Assembly: GCA_000004985.1 (NCBI GenBank)
Contig: GG738846.1
Length of the DNA: 64,000 nt
Direction: 5' to 3' (one strand)
Source: Naegleria gruberi
Taxonomy: Eukaryota
The notes below the pieces were generated by a model, which searched no databases, was not told the DNA's origin, and saw nothing but the letters and a program-made list of their open reading frames with translations. The translations under genes were made by a program, and so were the position numbers. How positions within the stretch are numbered: position 1 is the first letter of the stretch; the number at the start of each line of letters is the position of its first letter. Below are positions 12,251 through 37,824 of this stretch, one piece after another.

Positions 12251-12436
12251 ATACTGTAGAGTATTTCAATATAATGAAAATGTAAATAAAACAATCTTTA
12301 AATGGATAATTCTTTAATTGAGATAAACATGATTTTAGAAAATAAGGCAATCTATTATTAATAAAAATCTTTGATCCATTGGAGTTGGAGGTTTGTGACT
12401 CCGTCCCATCACACTTCAATATTGTTAAAAAAAAAT

Positions 12437-14754: not shown

Positions 14755-17700
14755 ATGAACAGGACGGTTAATATTGTTCTCCTTTCCATAGTTTCCGTTC
14801 TAGCCTTATTCTTCCTTTCTGGAGGTGTAAGTGCTGGTTCTGGTATTTACGAAGCAGCATGTAACACTACTGCTGACTGTGTTTCCACATTAGCTTGTGA
14901 TACTAATACATCCCTCTGTATTTGCGATACTGGTTTGGTTAGATATAATGATTCTCTCTGTGTTCCAGCCTGTACTTCTGATGCCAACTGTACTAATGGT
15001 GGTGTCTGTGATTTAACTTCTGGTACTTGTAATTGTACTGCCAATTATGATGGACCAACTTGTACTGATTCTCTAATTGTTCAAGGTAACAATAGTTCTG
15101 ATAGTAGTAACAATGCTACTGACCCATCAAGTCCTTCTGCTAATAATACTGACTCGTCTAATAGTACAGATCCATCAACTCCAAGTGGTAATAACAGTAC
15201 TAACAATGAAACTAATCCATCAACTCCAGGTGGTAATAACAATACTAGTAATGGTACAACTGATCCAACTAATCCATCTTCCAATAATACCGATCCATCA
15301 ACTCCAGGTGGTAACAATAGCACTAACAATGGTACAACTGATCCATCAACTCCAGGTGGTAATAACAGTACTGGTAATAATACCAATCCATCAACTCCAG
15401 GTGGTAATAACAATACTAGTAATGGTACAACTGATCCAACAAATCCAACCAGTAACAACACTAATCCATCTTCCAACAATACCGATCCATCAACTCCAGG
15501 TGGTAATAACAGTACTGGCAATAATACAGATCCATCAACTCCAGGTGGTAATAACAATACTAGTAATGGTACAGCTGATCCAACAAATCCAACCAGTAAC
15601 AACACTAATCCATCAACTCCAGGTGGTAACAATAGCACTAACAATGGTACAACTGATCCAACAAATCCAACAAGTAACAACACTAATCCATCTTCCAATA
15701 ATACTAATCCATCAACTCCAGGTGGTAATAACAGTACTGGTAATAATACCGATCCATCGACTCCAGGTGGTAATAACAATACTAGTAATGGTACAGCTGA
15801 TCCAACAAATCCATCTTCCAATAATACTAATCCATCAACTCCAGGTGGTAATAACAGTACTGGCAATAATACCGATCCATCGACTCCAGGTGGCAACAAT
15901 AGCACTAGCAATGGTACAGTTACTGATAAGTGTACTGATATCAATTGTGTACACGGTTCATGCATTGATGGTGCCTGTCAATGTGAAACTGGTTATACAG
16001 GTTCTCTCTGTGATCAAGCTATTACATCTAACAATACTGATAAGTGTGCTGATATCAATTGTGTCCACGGTTCATGCAGTGAAGGTGTCTGTCAATGTGA
16101 AACTGGTTATACAGGTTCTCTCTGTGATCAAGCTGTTACATCTAACAATACTGATAAGTGTGCTGATATCAATTGTGTCCACGGTTCATGCATTGATGGT
16201 GTCTGTCAATGTGAAACTGGTTATACTGGTTCTCTCTGTGATCAAGCTGTTACATCTAACAATACTGATAAGTGTGCTGATATTAATTGTGTACACGGTT
16301 CATGCATTGATGGTGTCTGTCAATGTGAAACTGGTTATACTGGTACTCTCTGTGATCAAGCTGTTGATCCATGTACCAACATTAAGTGTGGCAGCCATGG
16401 TTCCTGCTCAAAGGGTGTCTGTGTTTGTACTGACGGATACACTGGTTCGAACTGTGAAACTGCTCCAATTACTTGTAATGGTAAGAGTGAAGCTGAAGGT
16501 GGCTGTTCATTCCATGGTACATGTAGCGCCACTGATAAGTGTATTTGTAATGGTAACTTTGACTCTGCCTCTTTCTGTTCAAAGTGTAAGACTGGTTATA
16601 CAGGTTCTGACTGTTCTATTCCAGTTTGTTTCAATGTTCCTTCTACTTCTAGCAGTGTTTGTTCTGGAAAGGGGTCTTGCACAGCTCCTGATTCTTGTGT
16701 ATGTGCTTCTGGTTACTCTGGAAAGACGTGTTCTTCCTTCTCTTGTTGGGGTATTGATAAGTCCAACAGCACTGTATGTGGTGGTAGCTCTAAGGGTACT
16801 TGTGTTGGTCCAAATAAGTGTTCTTGTGTTTCCAACTGGAACAATCTTGAAAATACCTGTGTATCCTGCAGTCCTGCATACACTGGTGAGACTTGTACTC
16901 AAGCTACTTGTTCTGCCAATACAACTTGTAGTTCCCATGGTTCATGCGATGAAAAATTCAAGTGTGTCTGTTCTGGAAACTGGGATGGTGAATTCTGTAA
17001 TGTTTGTAAGGCTGGTTTTGTAGGTGATAACTGTGATATTGCTTGTTCTGCCTCTACTTGTAATGGTAATGGTGTTTGTACCAAGACTGGAGCTTGTTTA
17101 TGTGTTGGTCACTATGATTCTGCCCAAAAGTGTGCTGCTGGTAAATGTGCTGATGGTTTCCAAGGTAGCGCTTGTGACTATAAGGTAGACAGTTCCTCTT
17201 TCGCTTTTAACCAATTTGGTGATAGAATTATTGCCACTGTTTACACTAGTATGAAGAAATCTGTTAACTGTTCTCAAGTTTTCACATCAGTTGCTACCCT
17301 TGGTGCCGGTGTTCAATGTAACATGGACGGTGTCAGTAAGCTCGAAGTTGTTTTGGGGGCTGGTGCTACTGTAAAGCTTGGTGATTCATTGCAAGTTTAT
17401 ACACTCCTTGGTGATGTTTCTAATACTGTTTCCGTAACTGTTAAGGTTGGTAGCTTTGTTGCTGTCGCACCAACTGCTTATTTGACAACCGATAAGGCTG
17501 TTGTTTCCACTTGTGATACTGTCACTTTGAATGCATTTGACTCTGTTTCTACTGATCGTCGTCCATTGAACTTTGCTTGGACTTGCACTGCTGCTCCAAC
17601 TGCTGATGCCCAGACTACATTGAATAATGCTCTCAAGGTTACCTCAAGTGGTGTTAGACTTAACTTGGTTTCTCTTGGTCTTGTTGCTGGTACTTACACT

Positions 17701-20049
17701 GTTCAAGTCACTGTTACTTCATCATTCAGTGCCTCATCATCATCAAAGAGTGTCTCATTCACTGTAACTGCTAGTCCTGCCCCAGGTCTTTCTATTAAGG
17801 AAGGTTCAGTTGTTGAATATTTGATTGGTACTACTAGCATTATCACTCCAGTAATTTCCTTCCCAACATGTTACACGGGTAATGGTTCTGTTGCTTATTC
17901 ATTCGCTTATATCAACTCTATTGCCACTCCAACCATTGTAACTAAGGATAACATGGTTGTTATTGCAAAGACTAGTACTGCCATCTCTACTGTCGGTGAC
18001 TATTACATTGTTGTTACTGCTGCTGCTAATGGAGCTTCTGAAGTTTCCACTACTGTTAGAATTAAGGCTGTTGCAAAGCCATTAACTGTTACATTCAGTG
18101 TTCCAGATATGACCCAATCTAAGGATGATGCTGTTGACTTCACTGTCAATATTGTTGATCCAAGCGATACTACTGGTACTTTGGCCATTACAAGCACTTG
18201 TGTTGATGCTGATGGTAACACATGTGTGGCCCCAGCTGCTACTGAATCTGCCTCATTCTCAAAGTCCTTACCTGCTGGTAAATATACATTCACTACAACA
18301 GGTACAAAGGATATCAGAACTACAACTGCCAAGTTGACTATCACTGTTGTTGATACTGCAAAAGATAAGATTATTAGAGTTTCCATCACATCCAATACTG
18401 ATTTGTCCACTGTTGATCCAACCAAGGACTTGTACTTGACTTATAACACTTTGGATGCCTTGTCTACATCCGCCAAATTTACCTGGACATGTGACTCTGG
18501 TGACAGCAGTACTTCCTCTCTTTTGACAGTTTCAAAGGCTAACATGGTTCCTGGTGCTACCTACACTGCTTCGTTGAATATTGTAGATGGTGTCAAGTCT
18601 GGTTCTGCTATTGTTTCATTCACTGTTAATGCTCCACCAACAAAGGGTATCTTTGAAGCTTATCCACTTTCTGGTGCTGCTTTGAGCGATTCTTTCGATC
18701 TCAAGTGTGGTAATGGTTGGTCTGATCCACAATCTCCATTGAAATTCCAATTCTTATACTTGGATGCTGCATCTAACAATTGGGTTTCACTCACCGAAAA
18801 GACTGAACAACAAAGCACAAAGGTTCAACTTCCTTCACCATCTTCTGGTGACTCTTTGAAGGTTAAGGCTATTGTTTTTGATGCATTGGGTGCTTCAACT
18901 GAATCCGAGCAACTTTCTATCTCAATTACCAAGCCAAGTACTGCTGATGCCACTAAAGCTTTGAGTGGTTTGGCAGAATCAAAGGGCACTATAACCTTGT
19001 CAGCTGCTTCCTCTGCCATGTCTGTCATTGGTACTGTTGATTTGACAACAGCTACTGCTGAACAAAAGACTCAAATTGCTACCGCTGCCGCCGCTATTGC
19101 TGATGCTTTCATTTCTCAACAAACCAAGACTGAAGCTGTTACCTCAGTTTCTGCTGCCTCTGCTGAAAATAGCTTGTCATTCACAGCCTCCCTTGCTAGC
19201 TCAGTTTCTAAGGGTCTCGTTAGTGATGCTACTACTTCAAAGGTTGTTAGCAATTTGGCTTCCACTACTACAAAGGTTGTTTCTGCATCTTCTGTCAGTC
19301 TCTCTGATTCAGTTCTCGATTCTACCAAGAAAACTGCTGACAACTTCTATGGTTACATTTCTGGTAAGGTTTCTGCTAGAGTTCCACCAGTTTCTTCTTT
19401 GAGAGCTTTCAGTAAGGTCGATCTTGACAATTTGAACAGTGTTTACTCTAGTGTTGCTTCTTTGAAGACTAAGGATGCCGTTCCTGATGCTCCAGCTGCA
19501 ACCGTCACCTCAAACGGATTGACCACAGTTTCTCGTAAGGTCAATCTTGCTACTTTGGCCTCTGAATCTCAAGTTGTTTCTGGTAAGAATAAGATCACCT
19601 TCAAGAGTGCCATTGCTGCTAACTCTGCTTTGGCTAGTTTGAAGTCTGTCACTTATGCTGTAAAGACCACCACTTCCACTGTTACATCTGCTGCCTCAAA
19701 GTCTATCGATTTCTCCATTTCTAATGGTGCTTCTCCAGTTGCTGTTTCTGATTCTGCTGCTATTGCCGATTTGGTCTTTGAACTTTCTGCCAAGAGATCT
19801 GTTGCTGCTACTACTTACACATGTAACAAGATTACTAATGGAGTTGCTGCTGCTGATTCAACTTGTACTATTGTTGTTGGTACTGATGGTACTGTAACTG
19901 CTAGTGTCAAGAGCACTGGTGTCTATGTTTTAACTGCTTCCACCCCAGTTACTCCTGCTGCCACCAAGAGTGCTAAGGTCAATGCTGCTCCATCAATGGG
20001 CTTCTCTGCTTTGGTTGCCTTGATCGCTGCTGTTGTTGCTGCTTTGTAA
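14755..20049 (+). CDS. Giant (1764 aa) secreted, probably GPI-anchored surface glycoprotein. It has a signal peptide and a Cys-rich N-terminus. A hyper-N-glycosylated Asn/Thr/Pro repeat stalk follows, then multiple tenascin-type EGF-like repeats. Ser/Thr/Val-rich beta-sandwich units carrying F[AT]WTC motifs come next, then a conserved CGNGWSD...PLKFQF module. The C-terminus is a hydrophobic tail.
   Basis: Single ATG ORF. The signal peptide is MNRTVNIVLLSIVSVLALFFLSGGVSA. There are dozens of NxS/T sequons within NPSTPGGNNSTGNNTDPSTPGG repeats. The EGF spacing CxCxxGYTGxxC recurs. The C-terminus ends ...APSMGFSALVALIAAVVAAL (a GPI-signal-like tail). The reverse-strand ORFs over this region (15081-15965 and others) are repeat artefacts. 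Confidence 0.8.
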   Translation: MNRTVNIVLLSIVSVLALFFLSGGVSAGSGIYEAACNTTADCVSTLACDTNTSLCICDTGLVRYNDSLCVPACTSDANCTNGGVCDLTSGTCNCTANYDGPTCTDSLIVQGNNSSDSSNNATDPSSPSANNTDSSNSTDPSTPSGNNSTNNETNPSTPGGNNNTSNGTTDPTNPSSNNTDPSTPGGNNSTNNGTTDPSTPGGNNSTGNNTNPSTPGGNNNTSNGTTDPTNPTSNNTNPSSNNTDPSTPGGNNSTGNNTDPSTPGGNNNTSNGTADPTNPTSNNTNPSTPGGNNSTNNGTTDPTNPTSNNTNPSSNNTNPSTPGGNNSTGNNTDPSTPGGNNNTSNGTADPTNPSSNNTNPSTPGGNNSTGNNTDPSTPGGNNSTSNGTVTDKCTDINCVHGSCIDGACQCETGYTGSLCDQAITSNNTDKCADINCVHGSCSEGVCQCETGYTGSLCDQAVTSNNTDKCADINCVHGSCIDGVCQCETGYTGSLCDQAVTSNNTDKCADINCVHGSCIDGVCQCETGYTGTLCDQAVDPCTNIKCGSHGSCSKGVCVCTDGYTGSNCETAPITCNGKSEAEGGCSFHGTCSATDKCICNGNFDSASFCSKCKTGYTGSDCSIPVCFNVPSTSSSVCSGKGSCTAPDSCVCASGYSGKTCSSFSCWGIDKSNSTVCGGSSKGTCVGPNKCSCVSNWNNLENTCVSCSPAYTGETCTQATCSANTTCSSHGSCDEKFKCVCSGNWDGEFCNVCKAGFVGDNCDIACSASTCNGNGVCTKTGACLCVGHYDSAQKCAAGKCADGFQGSACDYKVDSSSFAFNQFGDRIIATVYTSMKKSVNCSQVFTSVATLGAGVQCNMDGVSKLEVVLGAGATVKLGDSLQVYTLLGDVSNTVSVTVKVGSFVAVAPTAYLTTDKAVVSTCDTVTLNAFDSVSTDRRPLNFAWTCTAAPTADAQTTLNNALKVTSSGVRLNLVSLGLVAGTYTVQVTVTSSFSASSSSKSVSFTVTASPAPGLSIKEGSVVEYLIGTTSIITPVISFPTCYTGNGSVAYSFAYINSIATPTIVTKDNMVVIAKTSTAISTVGDYYIVVTAAANGASEVSTTVRIKAVAKPLTVTFSVPDMTQSKDDAVDFTVNIVDPSDTTGTLAITSTCVDADGNTCVAPAATESASFSKSLPAGKYTFTTTGTKDIRTTTAKLTITVVDTAKDKIIRVSITSNTDLSTVDPTKDLYLTYNTLDALSTSAKFTWTCDSGDSSTSSLLTVSKANMVPGATYTASLNIVDGVKSGSAIVSFTVNAPPTKGIFEAYPLSGAALSDSFDLKCGNGWSDPQSPLKFQFLYLDAASNNWVSLTEKTEQQSTKVQLPSPSSGDSLKVKAIVFDALGASTESEQLSISITKPSTADATKALSGLAESKGTITLSAASSAMSVIGTVDLTTATAEQKTQIATAAAAIADAFISQQTKTEAVTSVSAASAENSLSFTASLASSVSKGLVSDATTSKVVSNLASTTTKVVSASSVSLSDSVLDSTKKTADNFYGYISGKVSARVPPVSSLRAFSKVDLDNLNSVYSSVASLKTKDAVPDAPAATVTSNGLTTVSRKVNLATLASESQVVSGKNKITFKSAIAANSALASLKSVTYAVKTTTSTVTSAASKSIDFSISNGASPVAVSDSAAIADLVFELSAKRSVAATTYTCNKITNGVAAADSTCTIVVGTDGTVTASVKSTGVYVLTASTPVTPAATKSAKVNAAPSMGFSALVALIAAVVAAL
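15100..15905 (+). repeat. Nested in-frame coding repeats built on a roughly 42 nt (14 aa) unit, encoding an N-glycan sequon-dense Asn/Thr/Pro stalk
   Basis: Recurring ccatcaactccaggtggtaataacagtactgg / gatccaacaaatcca blocks visible in the sequence. Confidence 0.8.
15922..16380 (+). repeat. Four tandem near-identical 123-bp units, each encoding one 41-aa EGF-like module (TDKCADINCVHGSCIDGVCQCETGYTGSLCDQAVTSNN)
   Basis: Units start at about 15922, 16045, 16168 and 16291. Only a handful of substitutions separate the units, which points to recent intragenic duplication or gene conversion. Confidence 0.85.
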
Positions 20050-20152
20050 ATGAACAAATAAACTTTTAAACTAATTAAAAAGAGTGATTGTTACAAATTG
20101 GCAAGGCTCAGAAATAAAAGGCAATGTGAGGAAATTGACAATTTAAATTTAC

Positions 20153-23100
20153 TTAAATCCAATTTTTCTTTGCATCCCGAGTCCAAATTTGTAGCAATTC
20201 GGTGGATCTGAATATTCTTAACAAGTTTACAAACATGGTTTCTTCCATTGCCAAATCCTTATCCTCTCTTGCCTTGTAAATATCTTGACAATAACATAAA
20301 ATCAAATCTACATTGTCCAAATCTTCAAATGTAATTCTTCCAACAAGATTACTGCTGTATAAACGAACAAACTGAGCTACAGCCAACACAAAAGATGTAT
20401 AGAAGGTAATAATACCAAAACTACTGATGGCAGAAATGACAGAATCAGCTGCTACAATATTAGTACTCTGAATAAAAAAGAAAGGACCTCCAGTTATGCT
20501 CTTCAAATTACCACTCTTTTCCAAGGGATAGAACTTTGTTGGTTGTGTACATGACATGAACCAAGAGACAAATCCTGGTGGATTATGCACAAGTTCAGTC
20601 CTCGACGAGTTGTAAACATTTGTTACAGTGAGAGAACAATTTGGCAAGTATCGACTTTCCATAACTGTGGCAGTAGCAAGCGCCGAGTACTTGTTCATCA
20701 TGTATGGATTGTAAGAGAGTGGAATATCAATGCTCTCTTTCAAATTTTCAGAATTGACTTTGGAAACATTATAATTAATCATTTGAGCCAATTGTTTTCG
20801 TTTCCAAGCATTCAATACAATACTTTGCCGAGTTTCCAATTCCAATTGAGTGGATGGACCACTTCTTTTCACAAGTAAACTCATTGTCAAGTTGAGTGCA
20901 AGTGTCTCATTGGCCAATGCTTCCACCATACTCATTCTACTTGGTGTTGAAATGAGCCAATACCTTTCTGAATATGGAGCAAGTGTAAAGTTTTGAATCC
21001 AAAAAGTAGGATCATAATTAGGGAATAATTTCAATCCATTTCCGTCATAGAAATCAACAAAGGTTTCCAAACTCTTTTCTGGATTAACTTTGAAATATTC
21101 ATTCTGATAGAATGGCTCAAAACCTTCAATTCCAATTGAAAATTGAATACTATTCACAGTGTTATAACTGAGAGCAGGATTGGCAGTTGAATAGAACAAT
21201 AATGGAAAGAAGATAATCATGGCAAAGACAATAAATAGCAAAAGACCACTTGTTGCCTTTGTAGTAAGGAAAATACGATTACCAAATCCTTTACCTTGTA
21301 AAATCTTATACTCCAAGTCGCATTTTCTCTTATAAAGTTGACTATAGACATCTTCCAATTTCAAATATTCATAAAAAGTCAATGTAGTATCAATAAATGT
21401 CCAATCCAACAAGGTCTTCAATTCAAATACGAATGGAATTGCTCTGTAAACTAAATAGACGTATTGAGCAATGTAATAGTAAGACTTGGTAAAGAATTGA
21501 GTATATCTTCTCTTTGGATAGCCAGTTCTGATTTGTAAACATCCCAAAAAGAGATAAACACACTTGATAAAGAATAAAATCTTGAGGAGTACCAAACCAA
21601 TAGTATTCTGATTTCTGGAAACTTCAACAAAGAAGGCAATGTAAACAATATGATAAATTAATACAACTAAAAAGTGGAATATCAACTTGCCAGTTGCAGT
21701 GGCAAACAAGTACAATACACGTTCAATACAAATTTCAATAAAGAATAGGAAGAGAATAATGACAAATGTTCCAGAGAGCTCATTAGATTTGATTGCTCCC
21801 AATGTTTCATCGGCAGCTCTACCACTCATACTAGAGAAACTAAAGAAGAAAAAGACAAATGCCAAAATTTCAACTGCAACAGTTACAACATAATAATCTA
21901 TACCAAGTTTGAATTGATCATTTGTTAAACCCTTAAAATGATTAATAAACTTGGATAGTCCTCTTCTGAAAATATTTGGCTTTTCACTGTTATCCTTTTT
22001 ACCTTTCTTATCTTCTTCTTGTTGAACATTGAATTTGACAGTCTTTTTGGACTCTTTCTTCTCCTCATTGTTTGTTGCATTGGATGGTCGAGGTGTTGCA
22101 GTCATGATATCATTGGTTACTAGCTCGACAGATGTTGCTGTGTTGGCTCTATTTCTTCCAGTAGTAGTAGTAGTATTGGTGAGAATTTGTGAATTGGATG
22201 GTAAAATCATTTGATCATCTCTTGGTTCAATGGTAGCATTTGTGGTTGTAATAATTGGATTATCTTGTTGTGTAGTGTTATTTTCTTGTTGATTGGCAGA
22301 GGCAAGTGCAGCTGCAGATAATCTCTTCTTTCTCGAATTGGTCTTCCATTCTCCACGATTTCTAGTAATTTCACGATGGAAAAAGATTGCAAGCATAATT
22401 AACAAGTACATGACAATATCAGCCAATAGAGCTGTACTTGGTTGCCATCCCAATAAGAAAATTGCTGGATCAGATTCAGTTGATTTGAGATTGTCAGGTA
22501 AACCAGATTGTACTAGATATAAAATATATTGAACACTAATCAATAGTTGAGCCAATATAAGCATGAGTTCCCAAAAGTATCTGTGAGGATATGGATATTG
22601 CATGGCTGCATATGTCAATGAAAAGAACGTAAAGGCCGTATTGAAATAAGTTGGAGCATAGAGTAAATTAACCAACATGGCAAAGTAACAAATGACATCC
22701 GTATTGCTGAAGAATAGTTTGGTAAGGGCTACGAGTAATTGTTTCAATTTCAATACAATTGGAACCCAATTGAATGGTTTCTTTTTCATATCGGGATGAA
22801 CTTTGGATTGTTCAAGTTTGAGTTGTAATAAATCATTCAACTCTTGTGTTGTAAATTCTTTTGATTTGAGATTTGGAATATCAGCTTGATCTTCCTTTTC
22901 CTCCTTTTCTTTTTCATCTTCTGTTAATTTAATTTCATCTTCAGGTTGTTGCTCCAATTCAACAAGTGTTTCAGTAGTGGTGGTAGTTTCATTCTTCTTC
23001 TTCCACTCCTCTTCCTTTTCTTCAATGTATTCATTGATGGCATCTGCAATAATTTCATCCAAATTAACTCTATATTTCTTCTTAATTTCCAATTCATCCA

Positions 23101-29100: not shown

Positions 29101-30282
29101 AGCTGAATCATCCAATTTAGTATTAGAAGTAGAAACCTTAGTTGTCACAACATCATCCACTTGCATGGCATACATGGTTTCATTCTGACCTTCTCCAATA
29201 TCAATTGTTGTTATTCCTGTATCAGTGGATTTAACAGTTTCTACTTTACCACTCATATTAATAAGGGAAGATTTAAAAGTTGACGGTGTTACTTTCTTAA
29301 TTTTTAAAGAAACACCTTCCTTTTCTAATTTTAATCTTCTTCTCCATAAAACTGAAAGGAAAATAAAACAAGTAAATGAGAAAATAATAACAAGAGCATC
29401 TGGAATGACATGAATTAGAATGAATGAAATGTCTTTCCCTTTCAAACTGTTAATTAAATACATAGTAATTGTTGTTGTTAATATGATAACATAATGAAAA
29501 CAAACCTCACAAATCCAATATCTGTCAAAACATCTGTCAAATAATTATCATTAATAGAAACAACACTGACAACAATAGTACCAATAAAATAACAAATAGA
29601 AACAAGTAAAGATATTGACAATGTACTAAATCTCGGAATCATCATCCAAATTCTGTTAATTCCAACTTTTTGAAAATATGGATAAAAACTTGGTGTTAAA
29701 TTGTGTAAAAAGAATATTAACATGTATGTTAAATTAATAAATGATGGTCTAATAGCAAAAGCTATTATTATTGTAATATTAAATAAATTGTAATATATCA
29801 ATTAATTATAATATATTTAAAAGTTAAAATAACAAATACATACACACTAATAATGACAAGTAAAACAATACACAAATAATGATAGATATAATTTCTAATA
29901 CAAGTGTTTTTCCAATAACTTCATCTGTTAAATTTGTCATTTGGTCCAAAGCATTGAACGATGTTTGACTTTGTTCAATACTTGATTGATCATCAGCAAT
30001 GTCAATGTCTCCTCCTCCTCTAATACCACCACCACTTGTAGTAGTTTGTATTGTTGAGAGAATATCCGATTTACTATCATCCATTATCAAATCATCATCT
30101 AATAATGATGGTGAAATATCATTGTTATTATTAATAATGTTATTATCGTTATTGTTGTTATTGTTGTTATTGTTGTAATTAAATGTTAAATAGGAGGGTG
30201 TTGTTTCATCAGCACTGTTACCTAACATGGAGGATCTTCTCCTCTGATTATCATTGTTGTTGTCAGTAGTGATAGTATTCAT
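20153..30282 (-). CDS. PIEZO: Piezo-type mechanosensitive cation channel, multi-exon, roughly 3200 aa. The last exon is a single 2246-aa ORF (20153-~26913). Upstream exon blocks sit at about 27483-27020, 27858-27494, 28662-27915, 29463-28735, 29801-29478 and 30282-29824.
   Basis: The C-terminus matches Piezo pore and CED hallmarks: RTGYPKRRYTQFFTKSY, AIPFVFELKTLLDWTFIDTTLTFYEYLKLEDVY, and the terminal LILCYCQDIYKAREDKDLAMEETMFVNLLRIFRSTELLQIWTRD (compare human ...LYAKLIFLYRSPETMIKWTRE). The upstream minus-strand ORFs are all polytopic and hydrophobic, like the Piezo N-terminal repeats. Two junctions were checked: a 56-nt GTATGT...AG intron at 27914-27859 and a GTAAGT intron near 27020-26914, both frame-preserving. 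The remaining junctions are not individually resolved. Confidence 0.8.
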
Positions 30283-30630: not shown

Positions 30631-33600
30631 TCAATAATTAGCAGCTGCTGCCATAGAATATGTTGACTGACCATTAGCAAGTGGAATATTCATCATGGAA
30701 CGAGCATATCTAGTTTCTGCCACCTTAATCTTTTGTGATTTTTCATCCTCAACTCTGTATCTCTTCCGACAATACACTGCAATTACAATAAGAATTATCA
30801 CAATAATGCAACAACACACCAACAAGATTGCTCCAACAATTGTAATGGCAACTACTCCTAAAAGAGTCCAATCGAATGAATAGGTGGTTGTTGCTTTCAT
30901 TTGTCCAATCAATATAACATTACCCAACTTGTTACAGGTACAACTAATTGATGTTCCTGTGTAGGCTTTGACACTACAACCAAACACAACTTTCAAAGCC
31001 TGATCATAGTAGGCACAATAAGTTTTCGAATAATTGAATGAATCTGAAATGTTTCTCAATGGGAATGTATAAACAATGGTAGAGTAGTCTACCATATTAT
31101 TATTAATGTTATCTTCTCCAAAATCTAAAGAAATTGAGAATGGTGAAATAACATATGGTGTAATGATAAATCCACTTTCGGTAATGGTCATTCTATCAGC
31201 AATTTTAAAAATGTCCTTTGTTGTCAAAACTGAATAAACAATATTGCTTTTAGAAAAAGCCTTTGGGAAAACATCGCCAATAAATGAAACAGATGAATCT
31301 TCTCCCAAGTCAATTTTGATTCCCTTGTATTGTAATCTTGGTACCTTTGCTGAAACTAATCTAAATGTTGTGGAAATGAATTGGGATGGATCAGTTCCAA
31401 TAATTTTGTTTCTCATTAGGAATCTAGAAGACTTTTTTGCTAGGGCCACAGCAGATATCATATTGTCTTCTTCACCTCTGAATGATCTCCACTCAAAATA
31501 TTTGAACATTGATTCTAAAGAGTAGTGGATCAGTAATTGAACATTTTTTGATGGAATGATTTCTTGAGTTTCAGTCATTCTGGTGAGTGTTTTATCGAGA
31601 AGGGAAATAGTGTTGGATACAACACTTGTTGCCACAGAGGTATAATCTCTCAACATTGAATCAATGGCAACAAGAATCAAATGTAAATGGTAAATGTTTG
31701 GATCTGGGTGCATAATTAGAGCAGTTTTCAAGTCTGACATTAAACTGACCAAATTATCTTGAAGTTCTTTGAAATCGGCAATTTTCATTGAACAATCTGA
31801 TCCATAATATCCTTCAATACATGTACAAACACCTTCACTCACAACACCGTTCATACAAGTAGTTCTATTTGGGTTATTCATATTGGCTGAAATTGACCTC
31901 ACAATAGCACTGGCAGTGTAGAGATTTAAATTCCAATTTCCTTCAGAATTTGAGTAAAGATCAGTCCAAAATGAAACTTTTTCCAAAATATTCTTTTCAA
32001 AAGACATTGGAAGGATGGTCACTTTAGAAGTAATTCCAATTTTGGCCATAGTTTTAGTGTTAACAACATCCAAAAAGAGTGAAAGTTCATTCCCTGCGTA
32101 TGGAGGAGGAAGAACTGCTGAATAAGTCTCTCCCAGGACTGAAAGAGGAATTTTGGTAAATGTCCTTTCTTCCAAGAAACCATAAACTATATCCAGTGTT
32201 TGATTTTTTAAACATGATGAGTCACAAACATAACTAAACTTTGTTTCCATAAAGATACCAGTAGATTGTTGAATTTGGCAAGAACACAGAGTTGGATTCT
32301 TTGCAACTTTGAAAGAATAAGAGGTTGTTGCAAGCCTTCCACTAGAATCTGCAATTGTTACTGCTAACATGTTGTCAGTACCATCTGTTAAAGAATATGC
32401 AGGAAAAATGACAAAATCACTCGTAGAAGGAGTTGAAGATTGATCACTTAACTCGACACCATTCAAAGACCACTTCCTCGATGAGATTGTATCTAACATT
32501 GACTGAGAATAAATTTGGTAGACAAATGCTTCATCTGTTGTTATGGTCGTTCTTTTAGGAACCGTATCTATGACACTGATAACTGGTTTGTCTGAAAGTA
32601 CCATTTCAATAGAAGATGTTGCTGTTCGTGAACCTTTCACAACCATTAAAGTGAGAATGAATGAAGAACTGGTTAAAACAATGTCCTTAGTGAGATCGAA
32701 TGAGGTGGATTGTGTTTTACCATAACTATTCAATGCTGTTTGTAAGGTTGTAGAACATGCTGGATCGCATGACCATGTCCATGTACTACTTTGGGTATTT
32801 AACATATCGGGATCATAATACTCCACTTCAATGTGGGCTGTTGTTGCTGATACCAAATATTGAATTACTCTTAACTGAAGTTCAGGAGAGTAGGTTGTTA
32901 TCTCTAAATCATCATAAAAGTAAAATGATCCATCAAATGCAGGTGTTCCAACTCTAAAGACATACTTTTGATTACCATAAGAGTACAGTCTATTGATTTG
33001 TAAATTAGAATATGTATCTGTTGTAAAATCTACAAAAGGTCCATAAATTTGTTTCCATGAAATTGTAAAATTGTATTCTTGCTTTGCCACGCAGGAATAA
33101 TCCAAGTTGGTAATTTGTTTTCTGAAAATTGTTGGAACGTCTGTGGTGGCGAGAGTTCTATTATTCTTTCCAACAATTTCTATAGCAGGTGGAGGAAAAC
33201 CCAAATTCACAACAGTAATAGTCTTTGGAATACTCAAAACTCCAGTAATAGCATCTTTAACCGTGAGGGTAAGATCGAAGCTTCCATACACTGTAACTTC
33301 TGTGGTTGTAAGGTTGAGAAATGGTGTTGAGTATTGTTTCACATAACTTGTTTTAGTTTTGTGTTGTATAGTCCAAATATAAATAAAAGGATTTCCATAT
33401 GAAGGTGTGCTCATTTCTCCATTAATAACTATAGGTTGGCATTTGTGAAATTCAGTTAATGTATAAGAAAGCATAGCAATAGGTCTTTGTTGTTCAAATT
33501 CACAAAAAGTTCCATTGTAACCATTTTTGCATTGGCATTTATCAGGTTGAAGACAAGATCCCCTCCCATTACAGACATAAGATGTGTTACTATAGAGAGT

Positions 33601-34089
33601 TGAATTGCAATAGTAATATTTACAAGTATATCCAGAATATCCTTCATTACACAAACAATTATTTGGAGAGTTGCACTTTCCAAAACCACTGCACACTGTT
33701 GGGTTATTATAACTCTTACCATAACAAGTTAGAGTACTATTGCAATAGGTTCCAACCCATCCATAAAAACAAGAACAACTTTCATTTTCCACACAATTTC
33801 CATTCCAACATGGAAACGTTAAACAATTAGTCGATGATTGAATTGTTTGATTGTTACTTGTCGGTATTGTACTGTTCACCACACTGGTTTCATTGCTACT
33901 TATTGAATCGTTGGTGTTTTGCACCAATCTCTCCGAATGAAGTATTTTGTTAATTCGTGATGATATATCATTCGTCTGCAGAGTTTTATCTGTCGATGAT
34001 GTAAATGTTGTCTCTAAATTTAGGAGTAAGACTAAGCAAGCGATGATAATAAATAGAAAAGGCTTAATTGTTAGTTGTGATGATTTCAT
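30631..34089 (-). CDS. Type I transmembrane surface protein. It has a signal peptide, N-terminal tenascin-type EGF repeats, a roughly 900-aa Ser/Thr-rich beta-sandwich ectodomain, one TM helix and a short cytoplasmic tail.
   Basis: ATG at 34089 (MKSSQLTIKPFLFIIIACLVLLLNL...). The track start at 34125 is a TTG. EGF signatures include CWNGNCVENESCSCFYGWVGTYC and CNGRGSCLQPDKCQCKNGYNGTFC. The TM helix is LLGVVAITIVGAILLVCCCIIVIILIVIAVY, followed by the tail CRKRYR...AAAANY. Confidence 0.75.
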   Translation of the reverse strand: MKSSQLTIKPFLFIIIACLVLLLNLETTFTSSTDKTLQTNDISSRINKILHSERLVQNTNDSISSNETSVVNSTIPTSNNQTIQSSTNCLTFPCWNGNCVENESCSCFYGWVGTYCNSTLTCYGKSYNNPTVCSGFGKCNSPNNCLCNEGYSGYTCKYYYCNSTLYSNTSYVCNGRGSCLQPDKCQCKNGYNGTFCEFEQQRPIAMLSYTLTEFHKCQPIVINGEMSTPSYGNPFIYIWTIQHKTKTSYVKQYSTPFLNLTTTEVTVYGSFDLTLTVKDAITGVLSIPKTITVVNLGFPPPAIEIVGKNNRTLATTDVPTIFRKQITNLDYSCVAKQEYNFTISWKQIYGPFVDFTTDTYSNLQINRLYSYGNQKYVFRVGTPAFDGSFYFYDDLEITTYSPELQLRVIQYLVSATTAHIEVEYYDPDMLNTQSSTWTWSCDPACSTTLQTALNSYGKTQSTSFDLTKDIVLTSSSFILTLMVVKGSRTATSSIEMVLSDKPVISVIDTVPKRTTITTDEAFVYQIYSQSMLDTISSRKWSLNGVELSDQSSTPSTSDFVIFPAYSLTDGTDNMLAVTIADSSGRLATTSYSFKVAKNPTLCSCQIQQSTGIFMETKFSYVCDSSCLKNQTLDIVYGFLEERTFTKIPLSVLGETYSAVLPPPYAGNELSLFLDVVNTKTMAKIGITSKVTILPMSFEKNILEKVSFWTDLYSNSEGNWNLNLYTASAIVRSISANMNNPNRTTCMNGVVSEGVCTCIEGYYGSDCSMKIADFKELQDNLVSLMSDLKTALIMHPDPNIYHLHLILVAIDSMLRDYTSVATSVVSNTISLLDKTLTRMTETQEIIPSKNVQLLIHYSLESMFKYFEWRSFRGEEDNMISAVALAKKSSRFLMRNKIIGTDPSQFISTTFRLVSAKVPRLQYKGIKIDLGEDSSVSFIGDVFPKAFSKSNIVYSVLTTKDIFKIADRMTITESGFIITPYVISPFSISLDFGEDNINNNMVDYSTIVYTFPLRNISDSFNYSKTYCAYYDQALKVVFGCSVKAYTGTSISCTCNKLGNVILIGQMKATTTYSFDWTLLGVVAITIVGAILLVCCCIIVIILIVIAVYCRKRYRVEDEKSQKIKVAETRYARSMMNIPLANGQSTYSMAAAANY

Positions 34090-34266
34090 TTTTTTAACTG
34101 TTAAACTGCTTTTATAAGCCGCCAATTCCTTGTGCTTTTCTAAGTGGGCTCTGGAACTTTAATTTACAGTTTCTTTTTTTGGACTTGTGAAAGTCCATTA
34201 CAACTTTTACCATTAAGGCAGTAAGGATATATGCACCATTTGAATATTTTCATAATTATTTGTGAA

Positions 34267-34340
34267 GCCGTCATAGCTCAGTTGGATAGAGCACAGGACT
34301 TCTAATCCTGGGGTCGTGGGTTCGAGCCCCATTGTCGGTA
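34267..34340 (+). tRNA. tRNA-Arg (anticodon UCU, reads AGA)
   Basis: GCCGTCATAGCTCAGTTGGATAGAGCACAGGACTTCTAATCCTGGGGTCGTGGGTTCGAGCCCCATTGTCGGTA folds as a cloverleaf. It has a 7-bp acceptor stem with one GU and one mismatch, a GCTC/GAGC D-stem and a CAGGA/TCCTG anticodon stem. The loop CTTCTAA has U33 and A37, and there is a GTTCGAGC T-loop. A TTTT terminator follows. Confidence 0.9.
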
Positions 34341-34419
34341 TCATTTTATGTTTTTTCTTTTGATTATCAACAGTTTTCAGAAAGAGCAGGTGAAAAAGTG
34401 AAAAGATCAAAAACAAAAA

Positions 34420-37400
34420 ATGGTTCAAAACTTGCCATGCCTAACTAAGAGGCAAATACCATCGTCATCTTTTATTCTCACCATGAATTCTCTTGTAATA
34501 CTCCTCTTTTTATTAATTGACATATCACATCAGCAAGAAATCCTTAATTGCCACGGCTTTCTCTCCAATGATACAATGGTCTGCAGTGGACACGGAACGT
34601 GTATAGCCAATAACCATTGCTCATGTAGGCCTGGTTATGGTGGTGAACAGTGTCAAGAAATTTCATGTTTTAACAATTATCCAAGGATGGTTCAATGTAG
34701 TAATCATGGAGAGTGTATTGCCCTCGATACATGTACATGTTACGATTTATATACAGGTCCAAATTGTGAACAATGTAAACAACCATTCCATGAAGGAGAA
34801 CATTGTACTCCCATTCAATGTTTTGGTGTTGAATATTCAGTGAAGAGTGTTTGTTCTGGTAATGGTGATTGCATTGCATCAAATAATTGTTCTTGTCGTG
34901 ATGGTTTTGTTGGTGAGAGATGTGAACAATTCACTTGTTTAAATTCAACTCTGAATAATACAGAATCAAACAATTCAGTGTTGATTCCATGTTCTGGACA
35001 CGGAGAATGTGTCAAAGCCAATAATACATGCAATTGTTATTCGGATGTTTTGTATGGTTTTTGGGCTGGTGCAAATTGTGATTCTTGTAAATCAGGTTAT
35101 GGGGGAACAGAATGTAAGGAACAAGTTTGTTCCTCATTAACAACTTGTAACGGTAGAGGTGAATGTACACAACATAATGAACCAAAGAATAATGTGAAGT
35201 ACTTCTTTGCTGGTTATCAATTAATATCAAGGAGTGCAATTCGTGCTCAAAATTTCAGAAATTTAACATTAGAGGGAAGTATTGCAACTGAAGGAGGTTT
35301 CTCAGTTCAAGTTTTGAGATCAGCATATGGTCAAGTGAATGTAAGAAATGACATTTCAAAAAATATGGTCAACTCTGCTATTTCTCTCTATCAAGAATTT
35401 TCATCTCTTGATTGTGATCAAACCATGCAACAATCCATTCCAAGTGGAGGTTTAAATCTAAAAGCTGGCACTTACTGTTTCCCACAAGGGTTAAATGGAG
35501 GAGGAAAGATTTCTGTTTCTGGAAGTGGAAGAATTGTCTTGATTTTAAAAACCAATTTGAATTATGGCTTCACTGTTGAATATTTAGATGGTGCCACAGT
35601 TGATAATCTATTCTGGGTAGTTGCTATGGGTAGTTCCATTAGTGGTAAATTCTCTGGTAATTTACTGACAGTTGGTCAAATTAATGTTAATAATGCATTC
35701 ATTTCTGGATCAATTATCAATGTAGGATCTTCTGAAATGAACCTCAATGGAGCTTCATTCGGTCCAATCTACTCCCCTCCTGTAGTAGATCCTTGTAAAT
35801 GTTTCGGTAATTATGCTCCTCCATACTGTGAATCATGTAGTGCTGGTTTCTTTGGAGACAATTGTACTCTCTCATGCTCACCAGAAAGGAATTGTAATGG
35901 AAGAGGTCAATGTTCACAAACAGGTTCTTGCTTATGTGGACCAAGATTTTCTGGTGCCTATTGTGAAGTGTGTGCAACAAAATGGATTGGAAAGAATTGT
36001 GACTACTTGATTGGAGACAGAGCCATGTTGAAAATAAGCAAATTGACTATTCAATATGCAAATCCATCCAAATCTACCCAAATAGATTGTTCTTCGATTC
36101 TCCTTGACGAAACTGTAAAAGAATTAGGATCCTCTCCTCAATGTTATTGGGATGACAAGTCAACCAATAGTTTCGTAATTGATTTAGGATTTGGGAATAC
36201 CATATATGCTGGATCCATTCTCAAATTCAAACTTGAAAATGGAAACTCTGCTCTTGTCACTGTCTATACAGATCCAAACTCAACCAACAATCCCCCAACT
36301 CCAATTCTAAAAGTTTCTTCTAAAATCTCAACATGTGCCCGATTAGAATTGGATACCTCATCTTCATATTCTCCAGATAAGAAATCTATTAGTTACAAAT
36401 TTGAGGTGACATCAACTCCAAATGAAAATTCAATGGTAGTTTTGAGAAGGGAATTATCACTCTTTGAAAATCAAGCATTTTTCAATATAGCTGCTTCCAA
36501 ATTAGCTGTTGGATCCTACAGCATCAAACTAACTGTTTCTAGTCCAGTAACTGGAAGTGCTTCAACTCAAGTAACATTCGAAATCATCCCAGTTCCTCCT
36601 CCAATCATTGATATTCCTGGAGGTTTATCTCAATCATTCGTTTATGGATCTGTAGTTGTAATTAATCCTCAAATTAGCGTTGCAGGATGCTCTAATAATG
36701 ATGGTTCCATAATTTACTCTCCTGCCAAATATCAAGATTTTTCCTATAATTGGGAACAAGTTTCAGGAAATGCAACCAAATTTTCACAAGAATCCTATAA
36801 TAGAATTCTTGTCATTTCAAGTCTACAAAATGAAGGAAGTTTCAAATTAAGTGTCTCGTCCTCAACTGGTTATTCTGATCGAGTGACAGTTGAATTGAAA
36901 TTGAAAGAGAGTGAATTGGTTTTGAAAATAAGAAATGGTAATTTCCTCTATGGAAAAGTGAACCAAGCAATGACTGTTGATTTTTCTCAATCCTATGATC
37001 CAACTAAAACTTTGGAGAAGGAGGAATTCTCAATTGTTTGTATTCCTTTGGGAGTTCTTGCTGTTTGTCCAATTTCTGAAATCTATGCCAATGTGAATCA
37101 AGAAAAAATGTTCACAATCGCAGAGAATTCATTGGTTGCAGGTTTGTATCAATTTACCATTTCCTATTCGAAAGGACGTCGTTCCAAGACTGAAACAGTT
37201 GTTGTGGAATTGGCTGAATACGTCTTTTTGAATGTTTTCATCAAGATGGCCACCAATGATTTCCTTCCAACATCTGTTCCTTTGGGAATGAATGTTTCAT
37301 TAGAAGCAGTTTCTCCACCAGATATTAGAAATGAAGTCACCTACATTTGGAGTTCCAGGACGAGTGGATTTACTCTGAATGATCAAACAACAATATCAGG

Positions 37401-37824
37401 AATAACCGGACCATTTTTAACCATTCGTGGTGAAGTACTCCAACCAGATACTTTTTATACCATCAGATTAGACGCGCAGTGGAATAAGTTGAATGGTTTT
37501 TCAGAATATTATCTTGCAATTAATACTCCACCTAAACCAGGTTATTTTACAGTCAATCCATTACAAAGTAAATCTGGTATTGACACTGTGACGCTTTCAT
37601 GTAGTGGATGGTCGGATGATAATACACCACTCTCCTATCAATTCTTTTTCAATGATGCAAAAACTTCAAGTTGGCAAGCATTAACTGGAAAAGTTTCCAC
37701 CAATCAGGTCAATGTAATGTTGCCTCCTGGTTATGGATCTTCTTCTCAATTAACAATTAAGGCAAGAGTTTATGACTCTACAGGTGCATTTAGTGAAATG
37801 CAACAAGTTGTAATGTCCAGTTGA
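34420..37824 (+). CDS. Secreted multi-EGF protein with an embedded ice-binding-like (DUF3494) right-handed beta-helix domain (aa ~255-450, nt ~35185-35780) and a C-terminal GWSD...PLSYQF module. It is a paralogue of the C-terminal part of the 14755 gene. No TM helix or GPI tail is seen, so there may be an undetected 3' exon.
   Basis: The signal peptide is MNSLVILLFLLIDIS (ATG 34420, alternative ATG 34483). About 7 EGF repeats (CSCRPGYGGEQC and similar) are present. The IBP-like block is LKAGTYCFPQGLNGGGKISVSGSGRIVLILKTNLNYGFTVEYLDGATVDNLFWVVAMGSSISGKFSGNLLTVGQINVNNAFISGSIINVGSS. It mirrors the fungal/bacterial IBP consensus L.PG.YKW...DTWIFQI...GGAQAKNI.W.VAGAV......F.G.ILA.T...KTG...NGR.L. 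The C-terminal block is CSGWSDDNTPLSYQFFFNDAKTSSWQALTGK, against CGNGWSDPQSPLKFQFLYLDAASNNWVSLTEK in the 14755 gene. Confidence 0.75.
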   Translation: MVQNLPCLTKRQIPSSSFILTMNSLVILLFLLIDISHQQEILNCHGFLSNDTMVCSGHGTCIANNHCSCRPGYGGEQCQEISCFNNYPRMVQCSNHGECIALDTCTCYDLYTGPNCEQCKQPFHEGEHCTPIQCFGVEYSVKSVCSGNGDCIASNNCSCRDGFVGERCEQFTCLNSTLNNTESNNSVLIPCSGHGECVKANNTCNCYSDVLYGFWAGANCDSCKSGYGGTECKEQVCSSLTTCNGRGECTQHNEPKNNVKYFFAGYQLISRSAIRAQNFRNLTLEGSIATEGGFSVQVLRSAYGQVNVRNDISKNMVNSAISLYQEFSSLDCDQTMQQSIPSGGLNLKAGTYCFPQGLNGGGKISVSGSGRIVLILKTNLNYGFTVEYLDGATVDNLFWVVAMGSSISGKFSGNLLTVGQINVNNAFISGSIINVGSSEMNLNGASFGPIYSPPVVDPCKCFGNYAPPYCESCSAGFFGDNCTLSCSPERNCNGRGQCSQTGSCLCGPRFSGAYCEVCATKWIGKNCDYLIGDRAMLKISKLTIQYANPSKSTQIDCSSILLDETVKELGSSPQCYWDDKSTNSFVIDLGFGNTIYAGSILKFKLENGNSALVTVYTDPNSTNNPPTPILKVSSKISTCARLELDTSSSYSPDKKSISYKFEVTSTPNENSMVVLRRELSLFENQAFFNIAASKLAVGSYSIKLTVSSPVTGSASTQVTFEIIPVPPPIIDIPGGLSQSFVYGSVVVINPQISVAGCSNNDGSIIYSPAKYQDFSYNWEQVSGNATKFSQESYNRILVISSLQNEGSFKLSVSSSTGYSDRVTVELKLKESELVLKIRNGNFLYGKVNQAMTVDFSQSYDPTKTLEKEEFSIVCIPLGVLAVCPISEIYANVNQEKMFTIAENSLVAGLYQFTISYSKGRRSKTETVVVELAEYVFLNVFIKMATNDFLPTSVPLGMNVSLEAVSPPDIRNEVTYIWSSRTSGFTLNDQTTISGITGPFLTIRGEVLQPDTFYTIRLDAQWNKLNGFSEYYLAINTPPKPGYFTVNPLQSKSGIDTVTLSCSGWSDDNTPLSYQFFFNDAKTSSWQALTGKVSTNQVNVMLPPGYGSSSQLTIKARVYDSTGAFSEMQQVVMSS

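What the first reader, a model, noticed from the sequence alone, without database searches (positions are those of the whole stretch)
14755..37824. Piezo channel gene flanked by three paralogous EGF-rich surface-protein genes
A roughly 10-kb Piezo gene (20153-30282, minus strand) has an EGF-rich surface-protein gene on each side and a third one further downstream. Convergent on its 3' side is the 14755-20049 EGF/GWSD GPI-type protein. Directly upstream of its 5' side is the 30631-34089 EGF type-I TM protein. That gene is in turn divergent from the 34420-37824 EGF/IBP/GWSD protein. The first and third share a distinctive C-terminal module (CxGWSDxxxPLx[FY]QF...W..LT.K), and all three share EGF and F[AT]W[TS]C beta-sandwich units. 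Clustering of a mechanosensitive channel with extracellular adhesion-type proteins could reflect a co-regulated surface mechanosensing or adhesion module. The shared modules might be PKD/REJ-like, but that is not established here.
Basis: partly seen in the sequence, partly recalled or inferred. Interest (0 to 1): 0.65.

Follow-up and report, generated by a model that had tools for sequence, protein, structure and literature searches.

The report
Naegleria Piezo among REJ–GAIN surface-receptor genes
In the amoeba Naegleria gruberi, the Piezo channel gene lies between three genes of a species-expanded family of surface receptors built like the outer part of polycystin-1 (EGF + REJ + GAIN), but relatives do not keep this arrangement, so it is probably chance rather than a functional unit.

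Summary
The window is Naegleria gruberi DNA. Region 20153-30282(-) is a Piezo gene, with Pfam cap and anchor E-values of 1e-62 and 2e-68. The GWSD…PLxFQF motif is the REJ core.

New here: the membrane-proximal stalk of the upstream gene P2 (30631-34089) is a GAIN domain. The AF2 model has pLDDT 81, and the ten best Foldseek PDB hits are all adhesion-GPCR GAIN domains. Its GPS motif is degenerate (KL/G).

- P2 is EGF–REJ–EGF–GAIN–1TM.
- P1 is probably the same on a GPI-type anchor.
- P3 stops after REJ.

They belong to a family restricted to Vahlkampfiidae, with about 20 N. gruberi paralogues on at least 14 scaffolds. P1 and P3 form one subfamily and P2 belongs to another.

The "module" idea is not supported. 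In N. lovaniensis only Piezo is collinear: upstream is a generic EGF stub and downstream is an unrelated cadherin-like giant. Acrasis has no such neighbours. Homologues elsewhere are not next to channels, and the promoters share no motif. Expression was not tested.

Verdict: this is a new member of a known kind and of modest interest. A PC1–PC2-like receptor–channel pairing with Piezo remains a low-probability speculation.

The parts
14755..20049 (+). P1: EGF/REJ surface glycoprotein (N. gruberi XP_002682682.1; the GenBank model is partial at 1500 aa, the ORF here is 1764 aa). It is convergent with Piezo, with 103 bp between the stop codons.
   Evidence: ORF. Pfam REJ 2.9e-37 plus EGF_TEN and EGF_Teneurin. 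100% identical to P0001, 'predicted protein, partial [Naegleria gruberi]'.
15160..15919 (+). P1 mucin-like N/P/S/T-rich tandem repeats, rich in N-glycosylation sequons.
   Evidence: TRF arrays of period 45-222; translation.
15921..16365 (+). P1: 3.9 copies of a 114-bp unit at 96% identity, each encoding one EGF. This looks like a recent internal duplication.
18190..18981 (+). P1 REJ domain core (aa 1146-1409). It contains the GWSD…PLKFQF motif at 18715-18726.
   Evidence: Pfam PF02010, 128.8 bits against a cutoff of 25; motif position.
18952..19959 (+). P1 Ser/Thr/Ala-rich stalk with a GPS-like 'TYTCNK…CTIVV…GVYVL' segment at 19813-19935. It may be a divergent GAIN domain.
   Evidence: Family stalk profile hits aa 1482-1735 with i-E 0.033. 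hhalign against A1 gives E 0.025. Both are inconclusive.
19984..20046 (+). P1 C-terminal hydrophobic segment that ends the protein. It looks like a GPI-anchor signal.
   Evidence: Hydropathy. The GPI assignment is an inference.
20153..30282 (-). Piezo gene with several exons. The 3' exon is 20153-26893. The cap domain is at 20177-21118 and THU9/anchor at 21188-21898. The start ATG is at 30282.
   Evidence: Pfam. 72-76% identity and collinearity with N. lovaniensis Piezo P0002/L001. Exon blocks.
30631..34089 (-). P2 = NAEGRDRAFT_61914 / XP_002682880.1 / D2UZF1. Architecture: signal peptide, EGF repeats, REJ, EGF, GAIN, one TM, 46-aa tail. It lies head-to-tail 349 bp upstream of Piezo.
31990..32817 (-). 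P2 REJ domain.
   Evidence: Pfam PF02010, 1.2e-16, 60.8 bits. The precomputed annotation of P0009 also lists PF02010.
30865..31887 (-). P2 membrane-proximal EGF plus GAIN domain: five long helices, then a beta-sandwich. The GPS motif is CTCNKL/GNVILIG, with the four GPS cysteines kept but Lys at -2 and Gly at +1.
   Evidence: AF2 with the 13-sequence alignment A1 gives pLDDT 81.3 and pTM 0.78. Foldseek PDB ranks 1-10 are all GAIN domains: BAI3 4dlo 5.7e-13 with TM 0.6, then BAI2, CELSR1, latrophilin-1/3, CD97, GPR110 and GPR126. The A1 profile against PDB sequences gives the ADGRL3 GPS region at E 5e-4. Cys290/303/315/317 are invariant.
30757..30879 (-). P2 transmembrane segment.
   Evidence: Hydropathy windows at aa 1071-1111.
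34267..34340 (+). tRNA-Arg(TCT) gene inside the 330-bp divergent P2/P3 intergenic region.
   Evidence: ARAGORN; sequence.
34420..37824 (+). P3: secreted or truncated family member. Architecture: signal peptide, EGFs, Ice-binding-like beta-helix (within the scanned stretch 35167-35784), EGFs, REJ (36838-37806, GWSD at 37606-37617). It has no GAIN domain and no anchor.

Best explanation
The locus holds the single-copy-looking Piezo orthologue of Naegleria gruberi, sitting inside a small cluster of three genes. Those genes belong to a family of cell-surface glycoproteins that is restricted to Vahlkampfiidae and strongly expanded in N. gruberi.

Full-length members have variable N-terminal binding modules (EGF arrays, Ice-binding-like beta-helices, NHL propellers, mucin-like repeats). 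These are followed by a REJ module, one EGF, a GAIN domain with a GPS motif, one transmembrane helix and a short tail. P2 is such a full-length member with a cleavage-dead GPS. P1 is a divergent member, probably GPI-anchored. P3 is a version truncated after REJ and presumably secreted.

These proteins most likely act as adhesion or recognition receptors for substrate, prey or other cells. The REJ–GAIN stalk would serve as a rigid, possibly force-bearing juxtamembrane unit. This function is inferred from the domain content and has not been shown.

Their position next to Piezo is best explained by local gene-family birth and turnover around an otherwise conserved Piezo gene. A conserved receptor–channel unit is the less likely explanation.
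For: Organism and identity.

Piezo.

REJ in all three proteins.

GAIN fold and GPS in P2.

Family size and distribution. Only 29 hits were found among 1.84 billion representatives. About 19-20 of them are N. gruberi paralogues on at least 14 scaffolds. Two gene pairs carry consecutive locus numbers on one scaffold each (NAEGRDRAFT_71164/71165, and EFC38199/EFC38200), and three paralogues share one 348-kb scaffold. There is one hit each from N. lovaniensis, N. fowleri and Willaertia.

Subfamilies. P1 and P3 are reciprocal best matches, while P2 groups with the other paralogues.

No conserved synteny. Homologues elsewhere have no channel neighbour. No shared promoter words. The other genes in the window are unrelated housekeeping-type genes.
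Against: Three members from two subfamilies bracket Piezo tightly, with gaps of 103 bp, 349 bp and 330 bp.

N. lovaniensis still has a family-type EGF gene in the same orientation directly upstream of Piezo, and a different giant extracellular protein convergent downstream. Some link between Piezo and neighbouring surface-protein genes therefore cannot be excluded.

Only two other genomes could be examined. No expression data were available.
Confidence: 0.7

Rival explanations
1. Receptor–channel module. One or more of the REJ–GAIN proteins, above all P2 (transcribed head-to-tail with Piezo), partners physically or by regulation with Piezo. The model is the pairing of REJ–GAIN proteins such as polycystin-1 and suREJ3 with polycystin-2 channels. 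Extracellular adhesion or force would thereby be coupled to channel gating.
For: Close bracketing of Piezo by three family genes. P2 has the REJ–GAIN juxtamembrane unit of polycystin-1. PMC4810088 describes REJ adjacent to GAIN in PC1. A family-type EGF gene also sits upstream of Piezo in N. lovaniensis. From my own knowledge, not tested here: REJ proteins act in ion-channel-regulated events (PMC2120838 abstract), and animal Piezo1 is reported to interact with adhesion molecules and polycystin-2.
Against: No REJ or GAIN gene lies next to Piezo in N. lovaniensis or Acrasis. The N. lovaniensis stub has no specific similarity to P2 or P3. About 20 paralogues lie elsewhere, and the two homologous loci inspected have no channel neighbour. 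P2 has only a 46-aa tail, a cleavage-dead GPS and no PLAT or coiled-coil domain. No promoter motifs are shared.
Confidence: 0.1
2. Surface-gene turnover hotspot. The neighbourhood of Piezo is a region where large extracellular-protein genes are repeatedly gained, lost and replaced. Piezo would then be flanked by different adhesin-type genes in different species, with no functional link to the channel.
For: Both species have large secreted or membrane proteins flanking Piezo, but they are not homologous: EGF/REJ in N. gruberi, and an EGF stub plus Cadherin_4/Big_9/VWA-like in N. lovaniensis. P1 shows recent internal repeat amplification. P3 looks truncated.
Against: Only two Naegleria genomes were compared. 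No transposons, repeats or breakpoints were sought or seen at the boundaries. This explanation overlaps largely with the best explanation.
Confidence: 0.15

Closest known systems
[quoted passage not shown] 1996, PMC2120838)
   Same: A modular surface glycoprotein with EGF module(s) plus a REJ module. From my own knowledge it has a single membrane anchor. It is a receptor rather than a channel.
   Different: suREJ1 has two C-type lectin modules, which are absent here. The Naegleria proteins have EGF arrays, Ice-binding-like or NHL modules, and a demonstrable GAIN domain. Sequence similarity is confined to the REJ profile. Ligand and function are unknown.
Polycystin-1 family (PKD1, PKD1L1-3, PKDREJ, suREJ3)
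   Same: A REJ module immediately followed by a GAIN domain with a GPS motif just outside the membrane (PMC4810088).
   Different: There is no PLAT domain, no 11-TM region and no channel-like C-terminal domain; there is one TM segment and a 46-aa tail. In P2 the HL/T triad is replaced by KL/G, and in most paralogues by xL/T without His. These proteins are therefore not family members.
Adhesion GPCR GAIN domains (BAI3 4DLO, latrophilin 4DLQ, CELSR1, CD97, GPR110, GPR126)
   Same: The same fold (Foldseek E down to 5.7e-13, TM about 0.6). The four GPS cysteines are kept, and the GPS strand 'CxCxxLTNvF' aligns to latrophilin 'CSCNHLTNFAVL'.
   Different: There is no 7TM domain and no HormR. In P2 the catalytic His and the nucleophile are missing.
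Piezo channels (Piezo1/2; Dictyostelium PzoA)
   Same: The central gene has the cap, anchor and THU domains and is the orthologue of the annotated N. lovaniensis Piezo.
   Different: Nothing unusual was seen beyond low-complexity insertions. Its N-terminal blades match Pfam only weakly.

Membership tests
Piezo channel | C-terminal pore module: anchor/THU9 and cap (CED) domains | tested here: met
   PF24874 2e-68, PF12166 1.3e-62, PF23188 2.6e-17.
Piezo channel | Long N-terminal blade made of many 4-TM units | tested here: inconclusive
   The upstream exons are hydrophobic and collinear with N. lovaniensis Piezo. The Pfam Piezo_TM1-24 hit is only E 0.0026. No TM count was made.
REJ domain proteins (Pfam PF02010) | Profile match above the gathering score | tested here: met
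   P1 128.8 bits, P3 166.9 bits, P2 60.8 bits, against a cutoff of 25.
GAIN domain / GPS motif | GAIN fold: helical subdomain A plus beta-sandwich subdomain B, directly before the TM segment | tested here: met
   For P2: AF2 pLDDT 81.3, and the top 10 Foldseek PDB hits are all GAIN domains. P1 is inconclusive. P3 lacks the region.
GAIN domain / GPS motif | Conserved GPS cysteines and the CxC…L(T/S)xF strand | tested here: met
   Four Cys are invariant in A1 and the consensus is CxCxxxTNVF. The profile aligns to the ADGRL3 GPS region at E 5e-4.
GAIN domain / GPS motif | Autoproteolytic H-L/T(S,C) triad | tested here: not met
   P2 has K-L/G, so it has no nucleophile. Most paralogues have (K/R/Q/S)-(L/F)/T without His. 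Cleavage itself cannot be tested with these tools.
Polycystin-1 family | PLAT/LH2 domain and an 11-TM region with a channel-like C-terminal half | tested here: not met
   P2 has a single hydrophobic segment and a 46-aa tail, and no PLAT or PKD_channel Pfam hit.
Adhesion GPCR | 7TM domain after GAIN | tested here: not met
   There is one TM segment only.
suREJ1-type single-pass REJ receptor | EGF + C-type lectin + REJ + one TM | tested here: inconclusive
   EGF, REJ and one TM are present. No lectin_C hit was found. suREJ1 itself was not aligned here.
   In N. lovaniensis only Piezo is collinear. Acrasis kona has unrelated neighbours.
   No expression data were accessible. The upstream regions share no k-mers above shuffled expectation.

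The most novel reading that the evidence does not exclude
A single-pass REJ–GAIN receptor (P2, possibly together with P1 and P3) is a dedicated extracellular partner of the Naegleria Piezo channel. That would be an independent, or very ancient, version of the polycystin-1/polycystin-2 'REJ–GAIN receptor plus cation channel' arrangement, built on Piezo instead of a TRPP channel.
Probability: 0.06. Interest if true: 0.8.

Novelty: new member of a known kind. Interest (0 to 1): 0.3.

Why it matters
If the adjacency were functional, it would link the REJ–GAIN ectodomain with Piezo in a deep-branching eukaryote. The function of that ectodomain in polycystin-1 is still debated. Such a link would offer a simple system for studying how juxtamembrane GAIN/REJ units talk to mechanosensitive channels.

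As it stands, the useful result is smaller. The REJ–GAIN juxtamembrane unit exists on single-pass proteins in Heterolobosea. It has been expanded to about 20 copies in N. gruberi. It carries non-canonical GPS sites, and none of the source names retrieved here mentions a GAIN domain. This may interest people who study GAIN-domain evolution and Naegleria surface biology (adhesion, prey or host recognition).

Tried and rejected
1. The search for homologous proteins with the non-EGF parts of P1 and P2 returned only the proteins themselves, because the word index was saturated at 8000 candidates.

2. The look-up of encoding contigs has no N. gruberi record. The N. gruberi annotation and the paralogue neighbourhoods could therefore not be read.

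3. Single-sequence AF2 of the P2 stalk gave pLDDT 33 and was discarded. The run with the 13-sequence alignment was used instead.

4. Single-sequence phmmer of the P1 and P2 C-terminal halves against PDB sequences gave nothing. Pfam GPS on P2 alone gave only E 4.5.

5. The afdb50 fold library was unavailable.

6. I tested whether the N. lovaniensis EGF gene upstream of Piezo is the orthologue of P2 or P3. It matches other paralogues' EGF arrays better, so this was rejected as evidence of orthology.

7. A shared promoter-word search among the P1, Piezo, P2, P3 and PDE upstream regions found nothing above shuffles.

8. I looked for a continuation of P3 past its stop codon, as an intron or a decayed GAIN/TM region. 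Only 527 bp remain before the PDE gene and no suitable ORF is present.

9. Literature searches for Naegleria with REJ domain or GAIN domain found no papers. The Naegleria/Piezo papers only cite Piezo in passing or list homologues.

10. A prokaryotic or viral origin was ruled out early: low-GC eukaryotic gene structure, introns in Piezo, and N. gruberi identity.
Full report
**What the window is.** The window has about 33% GC and long, nearly intron-free ORFs. P1 and P2 are 100% identical to 'predicted protein [Naegleria gruberi]' entries on a scaffold of about 1.0 Mb. P2 is NAEGRDRAFT_61914 / XP_002682880.1. P1 is XP_002682682.1, whose public model is partial at 1500 aa against the 1764-aa ORF here.

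**Checking the observation.** The ORFs are at the stated coordinates.

*Piezo.* The central gene is a genuine Piezo. Its 2246-aa 3' exon carries Piezo_THU9_anchor (2e-68), Piezo_cap (1.3e-62) and a THU unit. Hydrophobic upstream exons run to the ATG at 30282. The gene is 60-77% identical to, and collinear along its whole length with, the N. lovaniensis gene annotated as Piezo.

*P1 and P3.* P1 (14755-20049, +) and P3 (34420-37824, +) align over 707 residues (27% identity, E 3e-53). Both hit Pfam REJ strongly, at 2.9e-37 and 7.9e-49.

*P2.* P2 (30631-34089, -) shares the EGF repeats. It shows only weak direct similarity to P3 in the following region (4e-8). Its middle part scanned alone hits REJ at 1.2e-16 and 60.8 bits against a cutoff of 25, and the database's precomputed annotation agrees.

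The 'FxWxC' units sit in the region upstream of that core, which I read as Ig/FnIII-like repeats of the REJ module. Only P3's unit has its own Pfam support, a K319L-like PKD hit at aa 774-824.

*Ice-binding label.* This label on P3 is plausible. Ice_binding scores 1.3e-5 and 25.4 bits, just under the cutoff. The same module in paralogue P0010 scores 28.5 bits over the full profile.

*Anchors.* P2 has one TM segment and a 46-aa tail. P1 ends in a hydrophobic segment with no tail, which looks like a GPI signal. P3 ends right after REJ. Reading the short ORFs and sequence of the 527 bp before the next gene, a class-I PDE, showed no continuation.

**What else is there: a GAIN domain.** Between REJ and the membrane, P2 has one EGF followed by about 310 residues with no Pfam hit. 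The region ends in 'SCTCNKLGNVILIG', which looked like a GPS motif.

- Single-sequence methods failed: AF2 gave pLDDT 33, Pfam GPS gave E 4.5 and phmmer against the PDB found nothing.
- An exhaustive HMMER search of 1.84 billion representatives with P2 minus its N-terminal EGFs found only 29 proteins, most of them aligned end to end.
- I built an alignment of the stalks of 13 of them (A1). It has the four EGF cysteines and four more cysteines invariant, and the consensus 'CxCxxxTNVF'.
- A profile of A1 searched against all PDB sequences puts the GPS region of latrophilin-3 first (E 5e-4). 'CsCskLTNvFvie' aligns to 'CSCNHLTNFAVLM'.
- AF2 with A1 gives pLDDT 81.3 and pTM 0.78: five long helices, then a beta-sandwich.
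- Foldseek against the PDB returns GAIN domains at ranks 1-10: BAI3 4DLO at 5.7e-13 with TM 0.6, then BAI2, CELSR1, latrophilin-1/3, CD97, GPR110 and GPR126. After that comes a cliff to E above 1e-3 with TM about 0.1.

P2 therefore carries the REJ–GAIN juxtamembrane unit characteristic of polycystin-1 (PMC4810088), but on a single-pass protein. Its cleavage triad is K-L/G instead of H-L/T, so there is no nucleophile. PMC4810088 reports that T3041V blocks PC1 cleavage. Most paralogues have (K/R/Q/S)-(L/F)/T.

P1's Ser/Thr/Ala-rich stalk matches the family profile only marginally, and at the right place (i-E 0.033; hhalign E 0.025). I call it probable but unproven. P3 lacks the region.

**The family.** Source names for 30 of the hits give the following.
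- About 19-20 N. gruberi paralogues on at least 14 scaffolds. Two gene pairs carry consecutive locus numbers on one scaffold each, and three paralogues share one 348-kb scaffold.
- One protein each from N. lovaniensis, N. fowleri (named 'PKD/REJ-like domain-containing protein') and Willaertia magna.
- A few unnamed environmental sequences.
- One mollusc Notch-like protein that matches only through EGF.

Members combine teneurin-type EGF arrays, NHL propellers, Ice-binding-like modules and N-glycosylation-rich spacers upstream of the constant REJ–EGF–GAIN–TM unit. Within the retrieved set, P1 and P3 are each other's best match (121 and 113 bits, against 82 or less for the others). P2's REJ region matches 25 or more other members but not P1 or P3. 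The cluster is therefore a P1/P3 pair bracketing [Piezo, P2], not a simple triple tandem.

**Is the link to Piezo meaningful?**
- In N. lovaniensis (L001) tblastx shows collinearity for Piezo only.
- Upstream of it, in the same orientation, is a roughly 200-aa secreted protein of four family-type EGFs with no REJ. Next comes a Ras-like GTPase gene.
- That EGF stub matches other paralogues' EGF arrays better than it matches P2 or P3, so orthology is not shown.
- Downstream and convergent is a 2162-aa Cadherin_4/Big_9 protein with a VWA-like end, unrelated to P1.
- In Acrasis kona the neighbours are a zf-MYND protein and nucleoporin-type genes.
- The N. lovaniensis and N. fowleri family homologues lie among unrelated genes with no channel nearby.
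- The upstream regions of P1, Piezo, P2 and P3 share no words beyond shuffled expectation.
- The rest of the window encodes unrelated proteins: ORC5, VWA, Myb, antistasin-like, TRAF/RING, BRCT, KICSTOR and B9.
- Expression could not be examined.

**Explanation.** Most likely (about 0.7), an old Piezo gene sits in a patch where genes of an expanding surface-receptor family have been born and remodelled. The proteins are adhesion or recognition receptors whose REJ–GAIN stalk is structural or force-bearing, and their function is inferred from domains only.

A true receptor–channel partnership, modelled on PC1–PC2, remains possible. Points in its favour are tight bracketing, the head-to-tail arrangement of P2 and Piezo, and a family-type EGF gene upstream of Piezo in N. 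lovaniensis as well. It is not favoured (about 0.1, with about 0.06 for the strong form).

A 'turnover hotspot' variant would explain why both species have different large extracellular proteins beside Piezo (about 0.15).

**Comparison with known systems.** The closest known relatives are suREJ1 (EGF + lectins + REJ; PMC2120838) and the ectodomain base of polycystin-1. Membership of the PC1 family fails because there is no PLAT domain and no 11-TM region. Membership of the adhesion GPCRs fails because there is no 7TM domain.

**Novelty.** This is a new member of a known kind. REJ is already flagged automatically for some homologues. None of the source names retrieved mentions a GAIN domain, and my library searches found no paper pairing Naegleria with REJ domain or GAIN domain. 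Interest is modest.

Noticed in passing
window 34267-34340 (+): A tRNA-Arg(TCT) gene sits in the 330-bp divergent intergenic region between P2 and P3. This 'shared promoter' space therefore also holds a Pol III gene.
   Followed up: partly
window 15921-16365 and 15160-15919: P1 contains 3.9 copies of a 114-bp unit at 96% identity, each encoding one EGF. It also has a long N/P/S/T-rich repeat tract. Both suggest recent internal amplification. The public P1 model is 'partial' (1500 aa) and may miss this part.
   Followed up: partly
window 35167-35784 (P3 aa 250-455); also paralogues P0010-P0013: An Ice-binding-like (DUF3494, PF11999) beta-helix module recurs between EGF arrays in this family. 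It scores 25-28.5 bits, at or just under the Pfam cutoff. This is an unusual setting for a domain known mostly from bacteria and algae.
   Followed up: partly
L003 10001-17866, L004 4297-12864, and paralogues P0021-P0027: Many family members combine teneurin-type NHL propellers (TEN_NHL) and teneurin-type EGFs with REJ–GAIN. In animals these domain types are split between teneurins and their latrophilin partners.
   Followed up: no
L001 14384-21274 (-), N. lovaniensis: The gene convergent with Piezo in N. lovaniensis is a 2162-aa Cadherin_4/Big_9 repeat protein. It has an N-terminal anchor and a VWA-like C-terminus and is unrelated to P1. Both species thus have a giant extracellular protein at this position, but not a homologous one.
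   Followed up: partly
L001 3333-13525, N. lovaniensis: The N. lovaniensis Piezo is split into at least four separate gene models in the public annotation (3333-7880, 7958-8623, 8854-9630, 10001-13525). Only the last is named Piezo.
   Followed up: no
window 38352-41111 (+): A class-I 3'5'-cyclic-nucleotide phosphodiesterase (PDEase_I, 4.6e-70) with a long low-complexity N-terminus lies directly downstream of P3.
   Followed up: no
window 54243-55205 (+) and 62886-63860 (-): There is an antistasin-repeat protein (6 repeats, 8.8e-45), a domain type best known from leech protease inhibitors. There is also a B9-C2 ciliary transition-zone protein.
   Followed up: no
alignment A1 (family GAIN domains): No member examined has His at the -2 position of the GPS. 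Most keep Leu/Phe at -1 and Thr at +1, while P2 and P0010 have Gly at +1. Whether any of them autoproteolyses is open.
   Followed up: partly
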